Below are positions 5,298-8,384 of a DNA stretch of 64,000 nt, one piece after another; the stretch's first letter is position 1; every line of letters starts with the position of its first letter. Source of the DNA: Escherichia phage vB_EcoM_G5211; the sequence record MK327947.1; one strand, written 5' to 3'. Both the position numbers and the translations under genes were made by a program. The notes under the pieces were generated by a model that saw nothing but the letters and a program-made list of their open reading frames with translations, had not been told where the DNA came from and made no database searches.

Positions 5298-5325
5298 ATT
5301 ATAGGCATCTAAATCGCTCTGTCAA
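5298..5325 (-). promoter_or_regulatory. sigma70-type early promoter, TTGACA-16-TATAAT
   Basis: Perfect -35 and -10 hexamers on the - strand, immediately downstream of the hoc terminator. Confidence 0.5.
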
Positions 5326-5334
5326 GCACAAAAA

Positions 5335-5360
5335 CAAAAAAGCCACCCCGAAGGATGGCT
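5335..5360 (-). terminator. intrinsic terminator (UUCG tetraloop) after hoc
   Basis: Minus-strand RNA AGCCAUCC-UUCG-GGGUGGCU followed by a U-run. Confidence 0.6.
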
Positions 5361-5371
5361 GATATATTTCA

Positions 5372-6586
5372 TTAAGCAGGATGCATTTCACGAATGCGTA
5401 GAACTCGCTCTAACGTCTCTCGGTCCAGTTTATGTAACTCTTTGGAATGATACATGAAACCATTGCGAGATTCCATGCAAGTGCAATCACTATATTTTTC
5501 TTCCGCTGCCGCGATTGTCTCCAGATCTTTGGCGTACTTGCTGGTTGAATAAACTTCTCGATCACGCCACTCTAACCCAGCCTCATTGAATTTAACAATC
5601 TCGTCAAATACCCACCATCCAATGTAGATAAATGAAGTTTTGCGCCACGGGATCGGGTGTACGTAACGAAACATTTTAACAACTTCCATTGAACATTTTC
5701 GGCTTGTACTTGCTGCAACTTCTACTGTTTCATCTTCGATCTGTTGATATAGTTTAGCAACACACCAGAATTTGGCTGTGTCATCGTAAGTAGCACTCTC
5801 TTTGAACAGATGACCGTCTGGCATGATAGAAAATCCTTCCAGTGCTTCGCCGGCCTCACTACCGATTAGAGTCGGTGACGGTTGCCCTTCGCGCTGCAAA
5901 TACCAGTTATATTTGATCGTCAAATTAGGCATACCGCTAGAATCGCCTACAATGTCCTCTGACACAACATAATTAAGTGATATCTCATTACCTAGTGCCA
6001 CGGTCTTTGATTCCACCACATCCTGATCTACGTTCATTGTTGCCAGCATGATTTTAGTCGATGCGCTAGCGGCTGAATCTTCCGACTCACCCCACACTTT
6101 TACAGTATACAAGCCGTTTTTATCTGCTGTAAATTCTCGGATTGTAATATCCTGTTTTGTGTCTATAACGTCTTCGCCCTTACTCCAACTATAATGTAGT
6201 TCATAGTCGTCTGCTGGAGTCTTCCCACCAGAAAATTTTACTGTTGCATGTAATTCTACGTCTTTTTGTGATGATACGTAAAAATGCTGCGGTTCGGTGA
6301 TATTTACGATTAATTCAGCTTCTTCCATGAGGAAAACTTCAGATTCTACTGATTCCGTCGTATCGGTATCTTGTACCGTTACTTTATAGCTACCCGCATT
6401 TTCACTTGTTGCGTCTGCTACAGTTAGCGTAGCTGTGTTATTTTCATGCGGTTGGTCGTCTTTTGTCCATGTATATGTCAAATTGCTGGGTAATGGTTCG
6501 TCACCCGCTACAGTCGCCGTTAAGGTGAAACCATCTCCAGCAAGAAAACATCTTTTGTTAGATTGTATTGATACTGTGAAAGCCAT
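5372..6586 (-). CDS. hoc: Hoc, highly immunogenic outer capsid protein (Ig-like repeats plus capsid-binding C-terminus)
   Basis: 404 aa; repeated Ig-like segments (..YTWTKDD.., ..YSWSKGED..) and C-terminal GWWVFDEI..ESRNG motif as in T4 Hoc. Confidence 0.85.
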   Translation of the reverse strand: MAFTVSIQSNKRCFLAGDGFTLTATVAGDEPLPSNLTYTWTKDDQPHENNTATLTVADATSENAGSYKVTVQDTDTTESVESEVFLMEEAELIVNITEPQHFYVSSQKDVELHATVKFSGGKTPADDYELHYSWSKGEDVIDTKQDITIREFTADKNGLYTVKVWGESEDSAASASTKIMLATMNVDQDVVESKTVALGNEISLNYVVSEDIVGDSSGMPNLTIKYNWYLQREGQPSPTLIGSEAGEALEGFSIMPDGHLFKESATYDDTAKFWCVAKLYQQIEDETVEVAASTSRKCSMEVVKMFRYVHPIPWRKTSFIYIGWWVFDEIVKFNEAGLEWRDREVYSTSKYAKDLETIAAAEEKYSDCTCMESRNGFMYHSKELHKLDRETLERVLRIREMHPA

Positions 6587-6755
6587 ATAAAGCCACTCCC
6601 ATCGAAAATCCGAATTTAATTAATTGAAATAGTTGATTGTCATCAACCAGATAACCATTGCGAGATTCCAATACATGAGTATTAGAATAGTGATGCAACG
6701 AGGCCGAAATAGTATCGATCTCGTCTGGGTATTTGTTCTGTTTGATGTAATACAT
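6558..6755 (-). CDS. 65-aa ORF resembling the extreme C-terminal tail of Hoc; probable gene remnant
   Basis: YPDEID..HVLESRNGYLVDD parallels the T4 Hoc tail YPEVDVQESRNGYIIHK; no RBS before this ATG; starts with YYIK as at the end of 6852..7580. Confidence 0.3.
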   Translation of the reverse strand: MYYIKQNKYPDEIDTISASLHHYSNTHVLESRNGYLVDDNQLFQLIKFGFSMGVALYGFHSINTI

Positions 6756-6851
6756 TGATTTTGTTAGACATGTAGTATCCTCTTTTTAATTGCATAACGG
6801 AACTACAATTAAAATTATAACAAATATTTCACAACTTTTATCACCCAAAAA

Positions 6852-7580
6852 TTACTTGAGTGTGTGGAATTGGCTATGTTTAGTCTCTCGCACCTTGACA
6901 GACCCATCGCGTTTGATATAATAGATCAGTGACTTGAGGGTGTCGTGTACATACGCGTGCGGGAAACGCTCTGGATACTTCTTCCAATCTGGAGTATTAA
7001 CGATCCAGTCGAAAATCCACCACGGGCAGGAGTAGTAACCACGACCGCCACCGATCAAGCAAATGGTTGGACGGAAGCCGGTAAGATCGCAAAATGAATC
7101 AGTGTCATGTGCTGGGGAACGATGTTCTGCTTCGTCAGATAAAATGTTGGCTACCTGAGATTCCACTTTAACTTCCGGTACAACCACAATTTCAACTGGT
7201 ACTGTGTGTGGTTTGGCTTCTTCTACAACTGTAACTGTAACTGTAATTGGTTCTTCTTTTTGTTCTGGTTCTTTCATTGCTTCAACCAGAGACGGATCAA
7301 CTTCGTCGAATACTACTTTATCATCTGCGGTATCTGCTGCCAGAATAAGATCGTTAATACTGGTTCCTTCTGCCGGAGTTTCTTCTTCCATTTCGGATGC
7401 CAGTTTAGTTAATTCTGTTTCTACGAACTCGATCATGTTCTCTAGTGATAGCGTCTTTTTGACCTTGATGTCAAATTGTTTTGCGTAGTCCGCTAATTCT
7501 GTTTTAGCGGCTTTCTGTGCTTCTTTGTCGTCGGACGCCGCAATAGCGCGGAGTTCTTCGAAATATTCTTTATCAAACAT
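6852..7580 (-). CDS. Hoc-family capsid-binding-domain protein with acidic, TV-rich N-terminal region (occupies the inh position)
   Basis: C-terminal SCPWWIFDWI..DWKKYPERFPHAYVHDTLKSL parallels the Hoc module (GWWVFDEI..DW..Y.H..L); AGGAGAA RBS. Confidence 0.7.
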   Translation of the reverse strand: MFDKEYFEELRAIAASDDKEAQKAAKTELADYAKQFDIKVKKTLSLENMIEFVETELTKLASEMEEETPAEGTSINDLILAADTADDKVVFDEVDPSLVEAMKEPEQKEEPITVTVTVVEEAKPHTVPVEIVVVPEVKVESQVANILSDEAEHRSPAHDTDSFCDLTGFRPTICLIGGGRGYYSCPWWIFDWIVNTPDWKKYPERFPHAYVHDTLKSLIYYIKRDGSVKVRETKHSQFHTLK

Positions 7581-7606
7581 GTTATTCTCCTGATTGGGGG
7601 TGTTTG

Positions 7607-7614
7607 TATAAATA
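7607..7614 (+). promoter_or_regulatory. late promoter motif TATAAATA upstream of the segD-like gene and uvsW
   Basis: Exact octamer in the divergent intergenic region. Confidence 0.4.
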
Positions 7615-7652
7615 TTTGTATACTGTATTTATTGCATACGGAGATTTTTACT

Positions 7653-8384
7653 ATGGCTAAAAGATTTCATTATGTTTATGAGATAAAGAATCTTGTAAAC
7701 GGCAAGCTGTATATAGGTAAACATTCTACTAACAATATGCATGATGGATATATGGGGTCTGGTGACCTTCTTCGTGCTGCATTTGAAAAATATGGCATTG
7801 AGAACTTCGAGAAGCGCATATTAAAAATGTTTGATACCGAGCAGGATGCTTACCTATACGAGAAAGAACTTGTCACTGTTGACATTGTAAAAGATCCCAA
7901 TTATTATAATGTAGTTACTGGCGGTCGTTATGACGGAGACCAGGTATACTCAGACTCTGTACGCGCTAAAATGTCTTCTTCTGCCAAAGAGCGCGTAGAA
8001 CGTGATATGAAAACTGGAAAACTAAAAAAAGCAATAGTAGGTATGCGAGAGAGTGTTTCCGGTAGCTCATGGTATAATGACGGTGTTAAATCTATACGAG
8101 TTCGAGATGGAGAAACTCCACCTGACGGATTCGTCAAGGGTAATTTACATGCTGGGTGGGACCATATAGAATGGACGGAGGAACGCAAAGCCGCTAACAG
8201 GGAAATATGTCTAAGACAAGTCCAAAAGGATCGTGAGTCCGGTGCTCTCGCCGAGCGTGTAGCAAGGCTTAACGATTTTCATACTGGCAGTAAGTGGTAT
8301 AACAACGGGGTAGTTAATAAGGTCGTGAAACGCGGTGACACCCCTCCTGATGGTTTTGTTCTTGGAAAACTTGTTAAAAGGTGA
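7653..8384 (+). CDS. segD: GIY-YIG homing endonuclease, Seg-like (segD position)
   Basis: N-terminal HYVYEIKNLVNGKLYIGKHS GIY-YIG motif; GGAG RBS; duplicated GDTPPDGFV segments near the C-terminus. Confidence 0.75.
   Translation: MAKRFHYVYEIKNLVNGKLYIGKHSTNNMHDGYMGSGDLLRAAFEKYGIENFEKRILKMFDTEQDAYLYEKELVTVDIVKDPNYYNVVTGGRYDGDQVYSDSVRAKMSSSAKERVERDMKTGKLKKAIVGMRESVSGSSWYNDGVKSIRVRDGETPPDGFVKGNLHAGWDHIEWTEERKAANREICLRQVQKDRESGALAERVARLNDFHTGSKWYNNGVVNKVVKRGDTPPDGFVLGKLVKR

What the first reader, a model, noticed from the sequence alone, without database searches (positions are those of the whole stretch)
6558..7580. Second Hoc-family gene with a displaced C-terminal tail
The 242-aa protein next to hoc carries the Hoc capsid-binding signature (SCPWWIFDWI..DWK..YVHDTLKSL) behind a non-Ig, acidic TVTVTV-rich N-terminal region. 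The 65-aa ORF downstream encodes the matching extreme tail (YPDEID..ESRNGYLVDD). Both share the YYIK junction, with near-identical ~13-nt repeats (TATTATATCAAAC / TATTACATCAAAC), which suggests an insertion or partial duplication split an ancestral Hoc-like gene. A second decoration protein with a different displayed domain would be unusual.
Basis: seen in the sequence. Interest (0 to 1): 0.6.

Follow-up and report, generated by a model that had tools for sequence, protein, structure and literature searches.

The report
Intact inh plus dead second-hoc remnant
The 242-aa gene is the ordinary, complete T4-type Inh protein, whose C-terminal domain is a distant structural relative of the Hoc capsid anchor. 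The 65-aa ORF beside it is not its lost tail but the wreck of a deleted 846-aa second Hoc gene that a few sister phages still carry intact.

Summary
The window is an RB49-like Krischvirus. The 242-aa ORF (6852-7580, minus strand) is a full-length Inh. It matches the Inh profile end to end and stops at the same residue as Inh from seven other genera, so nothing is missing from it.

Its last ~80 residues are a remote homologue of the Hoc capsid-binding domain:
- hhalign 96% probability, against 1.2% or less for shuffled controls.
- At least 12 Hoc proteins follow the Inh proteins in BFVD.

This holds for the whole Inh family, not just this phage. I found no mention of it in the literature I could read.

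The 65-aa ORF (6558-6755) is an accidental reading frame across a pseudogene. Six of 58 Krischvirus records carry an 846-848-aa second Hoc gene (hoc2) between inh and hoc. The window keeps its ribosome-binding site, its first 12 codons and, out of frame, its last 36 codons. About 2.4 kb was lost, then a further exact 75 nt that Phi1-type phages still retain.

'MYYIK' is hoc2 codons N-V-L-H-Q-T read out of frame, so the YYIK/13-nt match to inh is coincidence. The split-gene model is refuted; the Hoc-like signature in Inh is confirmed.

The parts
6852..7580 (-). inh: complete 242-aa Inh ('minor head protein, inhibitor of prohead protease')
   Evidence: Matches phrog_1051 over 1-242 vs 1-229/229, E=4e-76. 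tblastn covers 100% of the query in T4-type Inh. Close homologues carry Pfam Phage_Inh_N + Phage_Inh_C. Lies between uvsW and hoc, as in RB49, Phi1 and RB32.
7326..7580 (-). Inh N-terminal helical domain (aa 1-85)
   Evidence: AF2 model: helices at 4-15, 19-34, 46-65 and 75-85, with pLDDT 84-93 for residues 1-60. No Ig or PKD Pfam hit.
7101..7325 (-). Acidic, TVTVTV-containing linker (aa 86-160), predicted disordered and hypervariable
   Evidence: pLDDT below 50 for residues 86-170. Unalignable between genera. Differs between RB49-type and Phi1/JK32-type Inh.
6855..7100 (-). Inh C-terminal domain (aa 161-242), a remote homologue of the Hoc capsid-binding domain with the same fold
   Evidence: hhalign Inh_C vs Hoc_C: 96% probability, E=4e-9, 56 columns; shuffled controls 1.2% or less. 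Domain model pLDDT 85.5. [quoted passage not shown] In BFVD, at least 12 Hoc proteins at Foldseek probability ~1.0. Hits three Hoc PHROGs at E=0.002-0.04.
6772..6851 (-). inh-hoc2 spacer with the native hoc2 Shine-Dalgarno sequence (GAGGA at 6778-6782)
   Evidence: 90-92% identical to the spacer upstream of intact hoc2 in JK32 and UPWr_E1. Coordinates.
6736..6771 (-). hoc2 5' relic: first 12 codons, MSNKINVLHQTE
   Evidence: 12/12 aa identical to UPWr_E1 hoc2 and 9/11 to JK32 hoc2. The CAGAA at 6736-6740 is the junction of the secondary 75-nt deletion.
6627..6734 (-). hoc2 3' relic: last 36 codons (KYPDEID...ESRNGYLVDDNQLF), out of frame with the 5' relic
   Evidence: tblastn with the JK32 hoc2 tail: 80% identity, E=8e-19. 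DNA 85-86% identical to the JK32 and UPWr_E1 hoc2 3' ends.
6624..6626 (-). Former hoc2 stop codon, now CAA (TAA in all four intact hoc2 genes examined). The terminator hairpin that follows hoc2 in JK32 is also lost.
   Evidence: Alignments. G2248 annotates a terminator after hoc2.
6558..6755 (-). 65-aa ORF (RB49 ORF168.2 type), an accidental frame. Residues 1-7 are out-of-frame hoc2 5' codons plus the junction, 8-43 are the authentic hoc2 tail, and 44-65 are read-through into the hoc leader and start.
   Evidence: No Shine-Dalgarno sequence before its ATG (sequence). In the 12 Phi1-type records the same frame has a stop directly upstream and no ATG.
6682..6771 (-). 29-aa frameshift ORF, MSNKINVLHQTEQIPRRDRYYFGLVASLF, starting at the native hoc2 ATG behind the Shine-Dalgarno sequence
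   Evidence: Phi1 ORF168.1 (54 aa) is the same ORF with 25 more hoc2 codons.
5372..6586 (-). hoc: intact 404-aa Hoc (three Ig/PKD-like domains plus the capsid-binding domain)
   Evidence: Residues 1-304 are near-identical to the RB49 Hoc crystal structure 3SHS. [quoted passage not shown] Pfam Ig/PKD hits.
6911..6923 (-). 13-mer TATTATATCAAAC in inh (codes YYIK). Its near-copy TATTACATCAAAC at 6740-6752 is hoc2 5' coding sequence.
   Evidence: 2 matches, 0.31 expected, 5 of 100 shuffles reach 2. Origin shown.

Best explanation
Two unrelated things lie side by side.

**(A) inh (6852-7580) is the complete orthodox Inh gene of T4-type phages.** The protein has three parts: a helical N-terminal domain, a disordered acidic hypervariable linker, and an ~80-residue C-terminal domain. 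That C-terminal domain is an old, diverged copy of the Hoc capsid-binding domain. It has the same beta-alpha-alpha-beta-loop-beta layout, the same WW at the start of helix 1, and the same E-[ST]-R-N-[SG] loop between the last two strands.

*Shown:* completeness, homology and common fold. *Inferred:* Inh uses this domain as Hoc does, to dock on the centre of major-capsid-protein (gp23) hexamers. That would account for its annotation as a 'minor head protein'.

**(B) 6558-6851 is the corpse of hoc2**, a second, giant Hoc gene of about 846 aa (multiple Ig-type domains plus a capsid-binding domain). In six Krischvirus records it sits between inh and hoc.
1. A first deletion of about 2.3-2.4 kb removed everything between roughly codon 37-40 and the last ~40 codons, and shifted the frame. 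Phi1-type phages are in this state.
2. A second, exact 75-nt deletion between CAGAA direct repeats gave the RB49/window state.
3. The stop codon and the terminator hairpin have since decayed.

The 65-aa ORF is a chance-open frame over this wreck and most likely makes no functional protein.

The confidence of 0.85 applies to the sequence-level claims: Inh is complete, Inh_C is homologous to the Hoc anchor, and the ORF is a hoc2 relic. The inferred capsid docking of Inh is less certain, about 0.3-0.5.
For: **Inh is complete**
- phrog_1051 is matched end to end.
- tblastn covers residues 1-242 in T4-type Inh.
- An eight-genus alignment shows an identical C-terminal end.
- Close homologues carry Pfam Phage_Inh_N/C.

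**Homology to the Hoc C-terminal domain**
- hhalign: 96% probability, E=4e-9. Reversed and shuffled controls score 8.6-14.8 against 48.9.
- Inh_C hits Hoc PHROGs 1149, 11091 and 14282 in the correct region.
- A distant Inh, P0237, hits Hoc PHROGs at 5e-13 and 6e-6 and has a Hoc-like GYWVVDEI helix.
- The AF2 domain model (pLDDT 85.5) has 8t1x_X as its rank-1 hit among 350,542 PDB chains, TM 0.59.
- In BFVD it matches four Inh proteins and then at least 12 Hoc proteins at TM 0.55-0.69.
- The WW and ESRNG elements are the capsomer contacts in T4 Hoc (Fokine 2023, PMC10385173).

**The relic**
- Intact hoc2 is present in JK32, Brandy, G2248, UPWr_E1, SSG23 and SFHK24.
- The window aligns to both ends of hoc2 with a ~2390-nt gap.
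- The 12 N-terminal codons are identical to UPWr_E1.
- The 75-nt nested deletion is exact. The 75 nt occur only in the 12 Phi1-type records and in UPWr_E1 hoc2.
- Census: 40 RB49-type, 12 Phi1-type, 6 intact, of 58 records. The RB49-type and intact counts are read from tblastn coverage and were checked by DNA alignment in only a few records.
Against: - An Inh_C profile searched against 1.84 billion representative proteins finds only Inh-architecture proteins and no Hoc. The two families are far apart.
- The Foldseek E-values against PDB are not significant on their own (0.22 and 0.31).
- Several Hoc capsid-contact residues (T4 Y293, H295, R300) have no clear Inh counterpart.
- Krischvirus Inh has K-H where other Inh proteins and Hoc have R-N.
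- Capsid docking by Inh is untested.
- For the relic, substitutions are too few for a dN/dS test.
- The 65-aa frame is open in 40 of 58 records, and its read-through overlaps the hoc start. Translation cannot be excluded from sequence alone.
- The exact breakpoint of the first deletion is ambiguous within about 16 nt.
Confidence: 0.85

Rival explanations
1. An ancestral Hoc-like gene was split by an insertion or partial duplication at a YYIK junction. The 242-aa ORF is then the truncated body and the 65-aa ORF its displaced C-terminal tail.
For: Both ORFs carry Hoc-type motifs. A 12/13-nt match lies at YYIK in both, only ~170 nt apart. The 65-aa ORF resembles the Hoc tail at E=3e-8.
Against: The 242-aa protein is not truncated. 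It is collinear to its last residue with Inh of eight genera and has its own loop and terminal strand. The 65-aa ORF is 80% identical to the hoc2 tail and is preceded by the hoc2 ribosome-binding site and first 12 codons. Its YYIK is an out-of-frame reading of hoc2 codons N-V-L-H-Q-T, which sit in the same place in intact hoc2 genes. T4-type phages have inh directly followed by hoc, with no such ORF.
Confidence: 0.02
2. The 65-aa ORF is a real, retained small gene. It would be a neo-functionalised remnant making a mini-peptide with the ESRNG loop, for instance one that modulates Hoc binding or is translationally coupled to hoc.
For: The frame is open in 40 of 58 Krischvirus records. It forms its own PHROG 32100 and is annotated in RB49 as ORF168.2. 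Loss of the stop codon makes it overlap the hoc start by 29 nt.
Against: There is no Shine-Dalgarno sequence before its ATG, whereas the native hoc2 Shine-Dalgarno sequence and ATG drive a different frame that gives a 29-aa product. In 12 Phi1-type records the frame has no ATG and is closed upstream. Only 36 of about 85-95 domain residues are present: beta-strands 1-2 and the WW helix are missing, so it cannot form the domain. The near-identity among records matches the ~95% genome-wide identity of these phages rather than selection.
Confidence: 0.07
3. The resemblance between Inh_C and the Hoc C-terminal domain is convergence or chance between two small alpha/beta domains, not common descent, and says nothing about capsid binding.
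For: Sequence identity is only 16-22%. The Inh_C HMM does not retrieve Hoc from 1.84 billion proteins. The PDB Foldseek E-values are 0.2-0.3.
Against: Five largely independent tests all point to the same partner, in register from the WW helix to the ESRNG loop: profile-profile comparison with controls, HMM against three Hoc PHROGs, a bridging sequence (P0237), a rank-1 PDB hit, and at least 12 BFVD Hoc hits. The two genes are adjacent in most of the genomes examined. The conserved motifs are the ones that touch the capsomer in Hoc.
Confidence: 0.06
4. The polarity is reversed. RB49-type is ancestral, and JK32-type phages gained hoc2 by inserting a 2.4-kb Ig-repeat cassette into a small ORF.
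For: Only 6 of 58 records carry intact hoc2. Hoc genes are known to be plastic (Arbiol 2010).
Against: The short forms contain hoc2 5' and 3' coding pieces in different frames, a decayed stop codon and a decayed terminator. Phi1-type retains 25 further codons that match the first Ig domain of hoc2, with no function in the short form. An insertion would have to restore one 846-codon frame from two out-of-frame fragments.
Confidence: 0.02

Closest known systems
T4 Inh (gene inh / lip / hoc.1; Pfam Phage_Inh_N PF26097 + Phage_Inh_C PF26098; PHROG 1051)
   Same: Full-length collinear match at 42-46% identity. Same position between uvsW and hoc, same two-domain-plus-linker layout, same C-terminal end.
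   Different: The linker sequence is specific to the RB49 subgroup (TVTVTV variant). The loop reads RETKHS instead of RETRNS. No functional difference is implied.
Hoc C-terminal capsid-binding domain (T4 Hoc residues 281-376, PDB 8T1X; RB49 Hoc)
   Same: Inh_C shares the fold, the WW at the start of helix 1, the DWK motif and the E-S/T-R-N-G/S loop between the last two strands.
   Different: Identity is 16-22%. The YVHPLPHR strand and loop are not recognisable. There are no Ig domains; the displayed part is helical plus disordered. The families are separate by HMM. Binding to gp23 hexamers is not shown for Inh.
Phages with two Hoc-type proteins, or with non-Ig cargo on the Hoc anchor (Serratia phage Muldoon, 1174-aa + 314-aa Hocs; Enterobacter phage PG7, Hoc anchor + GDSL lipase), Fokine et al. 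2023, PMC10385173
   Same: JK32-type Krischviruses carry a long (846-aa) and a short (408-aa) Hoc side by side. Inh would be another case of the anchor carrying a non-Ig module.
   Different: In the window the long Hoc is dead. Inh is not listed among Hoc homologues in that paper: the word Inh does not occur in it.
RB49 ORF168.2 / Phi1 ORF168.1 'ORFans' (Arbiol et al. 2010, PMC2839356; PHROG 32100)
   Same: They are the same DNA as the window's 65-aa ORF and its 29-aa frameshift ORF.
   Different: They were described as an added or unique ORF of unknown function. Here they are shown to be two nested deletion states of one hoc2 pseudogene.

Membership tests
Inh (Phage_Inh_N + Phage_Inh_C; PHROG 1051) | End-to-end match to the family profile | tested here: met
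   phrog_1051, E=4e-76, residues 1-242 vs profile 1-229/229. The local Pfam copy lacks these models, but 87-98% identical homologues carry PF26097 + PF26098.
Inh (Phage_Inh_N + Phage_Inh_C; PHROG 1051) | Conserved position next to uvsW and upstream of hoc, on the hoc strand | tested here: met
   In the window a homing-endonuclease gene is inserted between inh and uvsW.
Inh (Phage_Inh_N + Phage_Inh_C; PHROG 1051) | Inhibits the gp21 prohead protease and is a minor head component | not testable with these tools
   This rests on database annotation and older T4 genetics. No accessible paper describes it.
Hoc family (Hoc-like head decoration protein), applied to the 242-aa protein | Capsid-binding domain of the Hoc fold | tested here: met
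   hhalign 96% with controls. 8t1x_X is rank 1, TM 0.59/0.53. At least 12 BFVD Hoc hits.
Hoc family (Hoc-like head decoration protein), applied to the 242-aa protein | Significant sequence membership in Hoc profiles | tested here: inconclusive
   The domain alone gives E=0.0023, 0.0093 and 0.04 against three Hoc PHROGs, and the whole protein gives 0.12. phmmer against PDB Hoc finds nothing. The Inh_C HMM finds no Hoc in 1.84 billion proteins.
Hoc family (Hoc-like head decoration protein), applied to the 242-aa protein | String of Ig/PKD-like domains displayed from the anchor | tested here: not met
   No Ig or PKD Pfam hit. AF2 shows four helices followed by about 85 disordered residues.
Hoc family (Hoc-like head decoration protein), applied to the 242-aa protein | Conserved capsomer-contact residues of T4 Hoc (Y293, H295, R300, W309, W310, D313, E355-S-R-N-G359) | tested here: inconclusive
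   WW and E are invariant in Inh. The loop is RE[ST]RNS in seven genera but RETKHS here. D313 has an equivalent in the window only. Y293, H295 and R300 have no clear counterpart.
Hoc family (Hoc-like head decoration protein), applied to the 242-aa protein | Binds the centre of expanded gp23* hexamers | not testable with these tools
   Needs binding assays or cryo-EM.
Hoc capsid-binding domain, applied to the 65-aa ORF | Complete domain (beta1-beta2-WW helix-helix-beta3-ESRNG-beta4) | tested here: not met
   Only the last 36 residues (helix 2 to beta4) are present. Residues 1-7 and 44-65 are frame artefacts.
Pseudogene (deletion relic) of Krischvirus hoc2 | Both ends homologous to an intact gene at the same position in sister genomes, with the interior missing and the frame broken | tested here: met
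   The gap is ~2390 nt against JK32. The 5' 12 codons and 3' 36 codons are in different frames. The stop codon TAA has become CAA and the terminator hairpin is lost.

The most novel reading that the evidence does not exclude
Inh, present next to hoc in essentially all T4-type phages, is an unrecognised paralogue of Hoc. It would dock through the same anchor fold on the centre of gp23 hexamers, possibly on the unexpanded prohead, where Hoc itself clashes. The 'prohead protease inhibitor' would then act from the shell and be replaced by, or compete with, Hoc after expansion. T4-type capsids would have a second, overlooked occupant of the Hoc site, and Krischviruses would once have had three proteins (Inh, Hoc, Hoc2) sharing one anchor.
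Probability: 0.3. Interest if true: 0.6.

Novelty: new member of a known kind. Interest (0 to 1): 0.4.

Why it matters
**For annotation.** RB49 ORF168.2 and Phi1 ORF168.1 (PHROG 32100, 'unknown function') should be labelled hoc2 pseudogene remnants, and the 242-aa gene simply inh.

**For biology.**
1. Krischviruses show a decoration-protein gene caught in three states: intact, first deletion, second deletion. This documents how dispensable capsid fibres are shed by short-repeat deletions.
2. The family-wide link between Inh_C and the Hoc anchor gives a testable physical explanation for why Inh is a head protein. It suggests a site on the capsid for a protein whose mechanism has barely been studied since the original genetics. 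It also adds Inh to the set of natural cargoes carried by the Hoc anchor, which is used for T4 display and vaccine engineering.

Tried and rejected
- **Pfam scan of the 242-aa and 65-aa ORFs** gave nothing useful, because the local copy lacks the Phage_Inh models.
- **phmmer of Inh against PDB sequences** found no Hoc hit.
- **The search for homologous proteins with the 109-aa Hoc C-terminal fragment** returned a single candidate; the search was wasted.
- **The exact window Inh sequence** is not on record in the contig index.
- **An Inh_C profile against 1.84 billion representatives** was meant to pull in Hoc. It returned only Inh-type proteins and two repeat artefacts.
- **dN/dS on the relic** was abandoned: there are only 1-4 differences among RB49, Phi1, PTE-Eco09 and the window.
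- **The first deletion breakpoint** could not be fixed. Either a GA(C/T)TTTA microhomology or a junction after ATAGCAGAA fits, depending on a 9-nt indel.
- **Seven literature searches** found no statement on Inh-Hoc similarity. Miller 2003 and Sathaliyawala 2010 are not held, so prior mention cannot be excluded.
- **No paralogue of Inh_N and no further Hoc-anchor copy** is present elsewhere in the window.
- **A late promoter (TATAAATA) in front of the hoc2 relic** was looked for by eye and not found.
Full report
**Context.** The window is a Krischvirus, an RB49-like T4-type phage. Bases 6300-7800 are 94-99% identical to 58 phage records, all RB49 relatives. The local gene order on the minus strand is hoc (5372-6586, 404 aa), the 65-aa ORF (6558-6755) and the 242-aa ORF (6852-7580). 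On the plus strand a GIY-YIG homing-endonuclease gene and uvsW follow. RB49 and Phi1 annotate the 242-aa gene as inh, and the small ORFs as hypothetical ORF168.2 and ORF168.1.

**Observation check.** The two 13-mers exist and differ at one base (6911-6923 and 6740-6752). A match of this quality is expected 0.31 times per window, and 5 of 100 shuffles give two. The 65-aa ORF resembles the tail of the window's own Hoc (BLASTP E=3e-8, 36% over 39 aa). The 242-aa protein shows only an 8-residue WWxFDxIV match pairwise.

**The 242-aa protein is a complete, ordinary Inh.**
- tblastn aligns residues 1-242 to the 226-aa Inh of T4-type phages, and to Inh of Acinetobacter, Serratia, Proteus and Klebsiella phages among others. 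In all, 1422 records match, 1086 of them at 80% coverage or more.
- In RB32 (T4-type) Inh ends ...LIYYINRDGSVLIRETRNSSFVTLK*. The window protein ends ...LIYYIKRDGSVKVRETKHSQFHTLK*.
- An eight-genus alignment is collinear to the last residue.
- PHROG 1051 ('minor head protein inhibitor of protease') is matched from 1-242 against 1-229/229 at E=4e-76.
- Homologues 87-98% identical carry Pfam Phage_Inh_N and Phage_Inh_C.

Nothing is missing from its C terminus.

**The 65-aa ORF is a remnant of a different gene, hoc2.** In Shigella phage JK32, Brandy and G2248, an 846-aa gene lies between inh and hoc; JK32 annotates it as a second head outer capsid protein. It starts MSDKINILHQT... and ends ...EHTKYPDEIETIAASLHHYSNTHVLESRNGYLVDGTQLF*.

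tblastn finds the full-length gene in six records, all Krischvirus: JK32, SSG23, SFHK24, Brandy, UPWr_E1 and G2248. Read on the minus strand, the window DNA aligns to the JK32 inh-hoc2 spacer and the first ~11 codons of hoc2. It then jumps ~2390 nt to the last ~40 codons and the hoc2-hoc spacer. In window coordinates:

| Feature | Coordinates |
|---|---|
| hoc2 Shine-Dalgarno sequence GAGGA | 6778-6782 |
| hoc2 ATG | 6769-6771 |
| 5' relic, MSNKINVLHQTE | 6736-6771 |
| 3' relic, KYPDEID...ESRNGYLVDDNQLF (different frame) | 6627-6734 |

The 12 N-terminal residues are identical to UPWr_E1 hoc2. The 3' relic is 80% identical to the JK32 hoc2 tail (E=8e-19), against 36% to the window's own Hoc.

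The start of the 65-aa ORF, 'MYYIKQ', is the +1 reading of hoc2 codons N-V-L-H-Q-T-E. The same bases are normal coding sequence at the 5' end of every intact hoc2. The YYIK/13-nt similarity to inh is therefore not a junction.

**Two nested deletions.** Phi1-type phages keep 75 more nucleotides. Their ORF168.1 reads MSNKINVLHQTEDPVYGSVGHPLLLKIVVSTADFIAE, which matches the first Ig domain of hoc2, followed by the same frameshifted tail. The window and RB49 differ from Phi1 by an exact 75-nt deletion flanked by CAGAA repeats. Otherwise the region differs at 0-4 positions.

The 75 nt occur only in the 12 Phi1-type records and, at 92% identity, in intact UPWr_E1 hoc2. So the order of events is intact hoc2, then the Phi1 state, then the RB49/window state. 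The census is 6 intact, 12 Phi1-type and 40 RB49-type; the intact and RB49-type counts rest on tblastn coverage.

All relics share the change of the stop codon from TAA to CAA (6624-6626) and loss of the GC-rich hairpin that follows hoc2 in JK32. That hairpin is annotated as a terminator in G2248. The breakpoint of the first deletion cannot be fixed within about 16 nt.

**Is the 65-aa ORF a gene?** Probably not.
- Its ATG has no Shine-Dalgarno sequence. The native hoc2 Shine-Dalgarno sequence and ATG drive another frame that gives a 29-aa product.
- In Phi1-type genomes the ESRNG frame is closed by a stop directly upstream and has no ATG.
- Only 36 of its 65 residues are authentic Hoc sequence. 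They lack beta-strands 1-2 and the WW helix of the domain.
- Arbiol et al. 2010 listed ORF168.1 as an ORFan and ORF168.2 as a newly added ORF, without this explanation.

**Inh does carry a Hoc-type anchor.** Side-by-side C termini from eight genera show a common pattern. Inh reads ...PGYxTLPWWIYxWIxxxPDWK...LxSLIYYIxRDGSVxIRETRNSSFxTLK. Hoc reads ...SAYIWCGWWVMDEIxKMxxxGKDWK...YPEVDVQESRNGYIxH.

- *Profile-profile comparison.* hhalign gives 96% probability, E=4e-9 and 56 columns running from the WW helix to the loop. Reversed or column-shuffled Hoc alignments give 1.2% or less, with scores of 8.6-14.8 against 48.9.
- *HMM against Hoc families.* The isolated Inh_C hits three Hoc PHROGs in the right region (E=0.0023-0.04). 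A distant Inh from the protein library, P0237 (...GYWVVDEIDKLGDDWK...RESRNSQYVTFK), hits the Inh PHROG at 2e-36 and Hoc PHROGs at 5e-13 and 6e-6.
- *Predicted structure.* AlphaFold2 models give a helical N-terminal domain, about 85 disordered residues and a confident C-terminal beta-alpha-alpha-beta-beta domain.
[quoted passage not shown] The domain-only model gives TM 0.59/0.53. E=0.2-0.3, ten times better than rank 2.
- *Fold search, BFVD.* The domain matches four Inh proteins and then at least 12 Hoc proteins (Acj9, Matisse, 44RR2.8t, AM101, PhT2, PspYZU05, Acj61, CGG4-1 and others) at Foldseek probability ~1.0 and TM 0.55-0.69.

In T4 Hoc, W309/W310 and the E355-S-R-N-G359 loop contact the capsomer centre (Fokine et al. 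2023). These are the elements that Inh conserves.

*Limits.* An Inh_C HMM does not reach Hoc in 1.84 billion representatives. The Y293/H295/R300 contacts have no clear counterpart. Krischvirus Inh has K-H for R-N in the loop.

**Mechanism.**
- *Shown:* Inh is complete. Its C-terminal domain is homologous to, and folds like, the Hoc anchor. The neighbouring ORF is a hoc2 pseudogene.
- *Inferred, probability about 0.3-0.5:* Inh docks on gp23 hexamers through this domain, displaying an acidic linker and a helical head. That would explain its 'minor head protein' label. Whether this happens on proheads, and how it relates to gp21 inhibition, is open.

From my own recollection of the T4 literature, the 'inhibitor of gp21' assignment comes from older genetics. 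I could not retrieve a primary source.

**Comparison with what is known.**
- Two-Hoc phages, and Hoc anchors carrying non-Ig cargo, have been described (Muldoon and PG7).
- The JK32 record annotates both of its Hoc genes.
- The Inh-Hoc anchor relationship is absent from Fokine 2023, where 'Inh' occurs zero times. It is also absent from the reviews I could read.
- Pfam keeps Phage_Inh_C as its own family, and no Pfam family is recorded on the Hoc anchor.
- Prior mention in papers I could not reach cannot be excluded.

**Verdict.** The split-gene idea is wrong, and the finding as titled is not a new kind of gene. What remains is an annotation correction (a hoc2 relic in two nested states) and a family-wide remote homology that makes Inh a likely capsid-docking paralogue of Hoc. 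Interest is moderate, 0.4.

Noticed in passing
window 6895-6922 (+): A perfect sigma-70 consensus promoter (TTGACA, 16 nt, TGnTATAAT) lies antisense inside the 3' end of inh, over the YYIKRDGSV codons. It is identical in RB49, Phi1, JK32 and UPWr_E1, and only 7-9/12 in seven other Straboviridae genera. It points towards the homing-endonuclease gene and uvsW.
   Followed up: partly
window 5298-5360 (-): Just downstream of hoc, a terminator-like hairpin (5360-5341) is followed by a second perfect sigma-70 promoter (5325-5298). This resembles the promoter-early stem-loop (PeSL) cassettes that Arbiol et al. 2010 associate with hoc.
   Followed up: no
window 7632-8384 (+), likely true start 7653: A GIY-YIG (SegE-like) homing-endonuclease gene is inserted between inh and uvsW, and its end overlaps the uvsW start region. 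It is present in only a few relatives (PTE-Eco09, AV108, FL20) and absent from RB49, Phi1 and JK32. A late-promoter-like TATAAATA lies at 7607-7614 (+).
   Followed up: partly
window 6873-6890 (-), Inh residues 231-236: Krischvirus Inh has RETKHS where Inh of seven other genera has RE[ST]RNS. The R-N pair corresponds to Hoc R357/N358, which are implicated in capsid binding.
   Followed up: partly
window 7101-7325 (-), Inh residues 86-160: The acidic linker of Inh is hypervariable even among Krischviruses. The window, RB49 and MIZ6 share the TVTVTV variant; Phi1 and JK32 have a different one. AF2 predicts it disordered.
   Followed up: partly
L016 1077-3620 (UPWr_E1), L005 2703-5243 (JK32), L007 1580-4120 (G2248): Intact hoc2 genes differ by up to 40% in protein sequence between Krischviruses (59.6-94% by tblastn) while keeping the same length. 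Their anchor is 50% identical to that of the co-resident short Hoc.
   Followed up: partly
L011 4297-4800 (Escherichia phage Lw1): Lw1 Hoc has the ESRNG capsid-binding domain at its N terminus and the Ig-like part at its C terminus, the reverse of the usual order. Fokine 2023 describes one PG7 Hoc-like protein with an N-terminal anchor.
   Followed up: no
P0241, P0243, P0245, P0247, P0235 (protein library): Short (139-170 aa), lysine-rich proteins from unknown phages match the Inh_C profile weakly (E from 1e-9 to 4e-4). They lack the WW and the RETRNS loop, and may be a further diverged branch of the anchor family.
   Followed up: no
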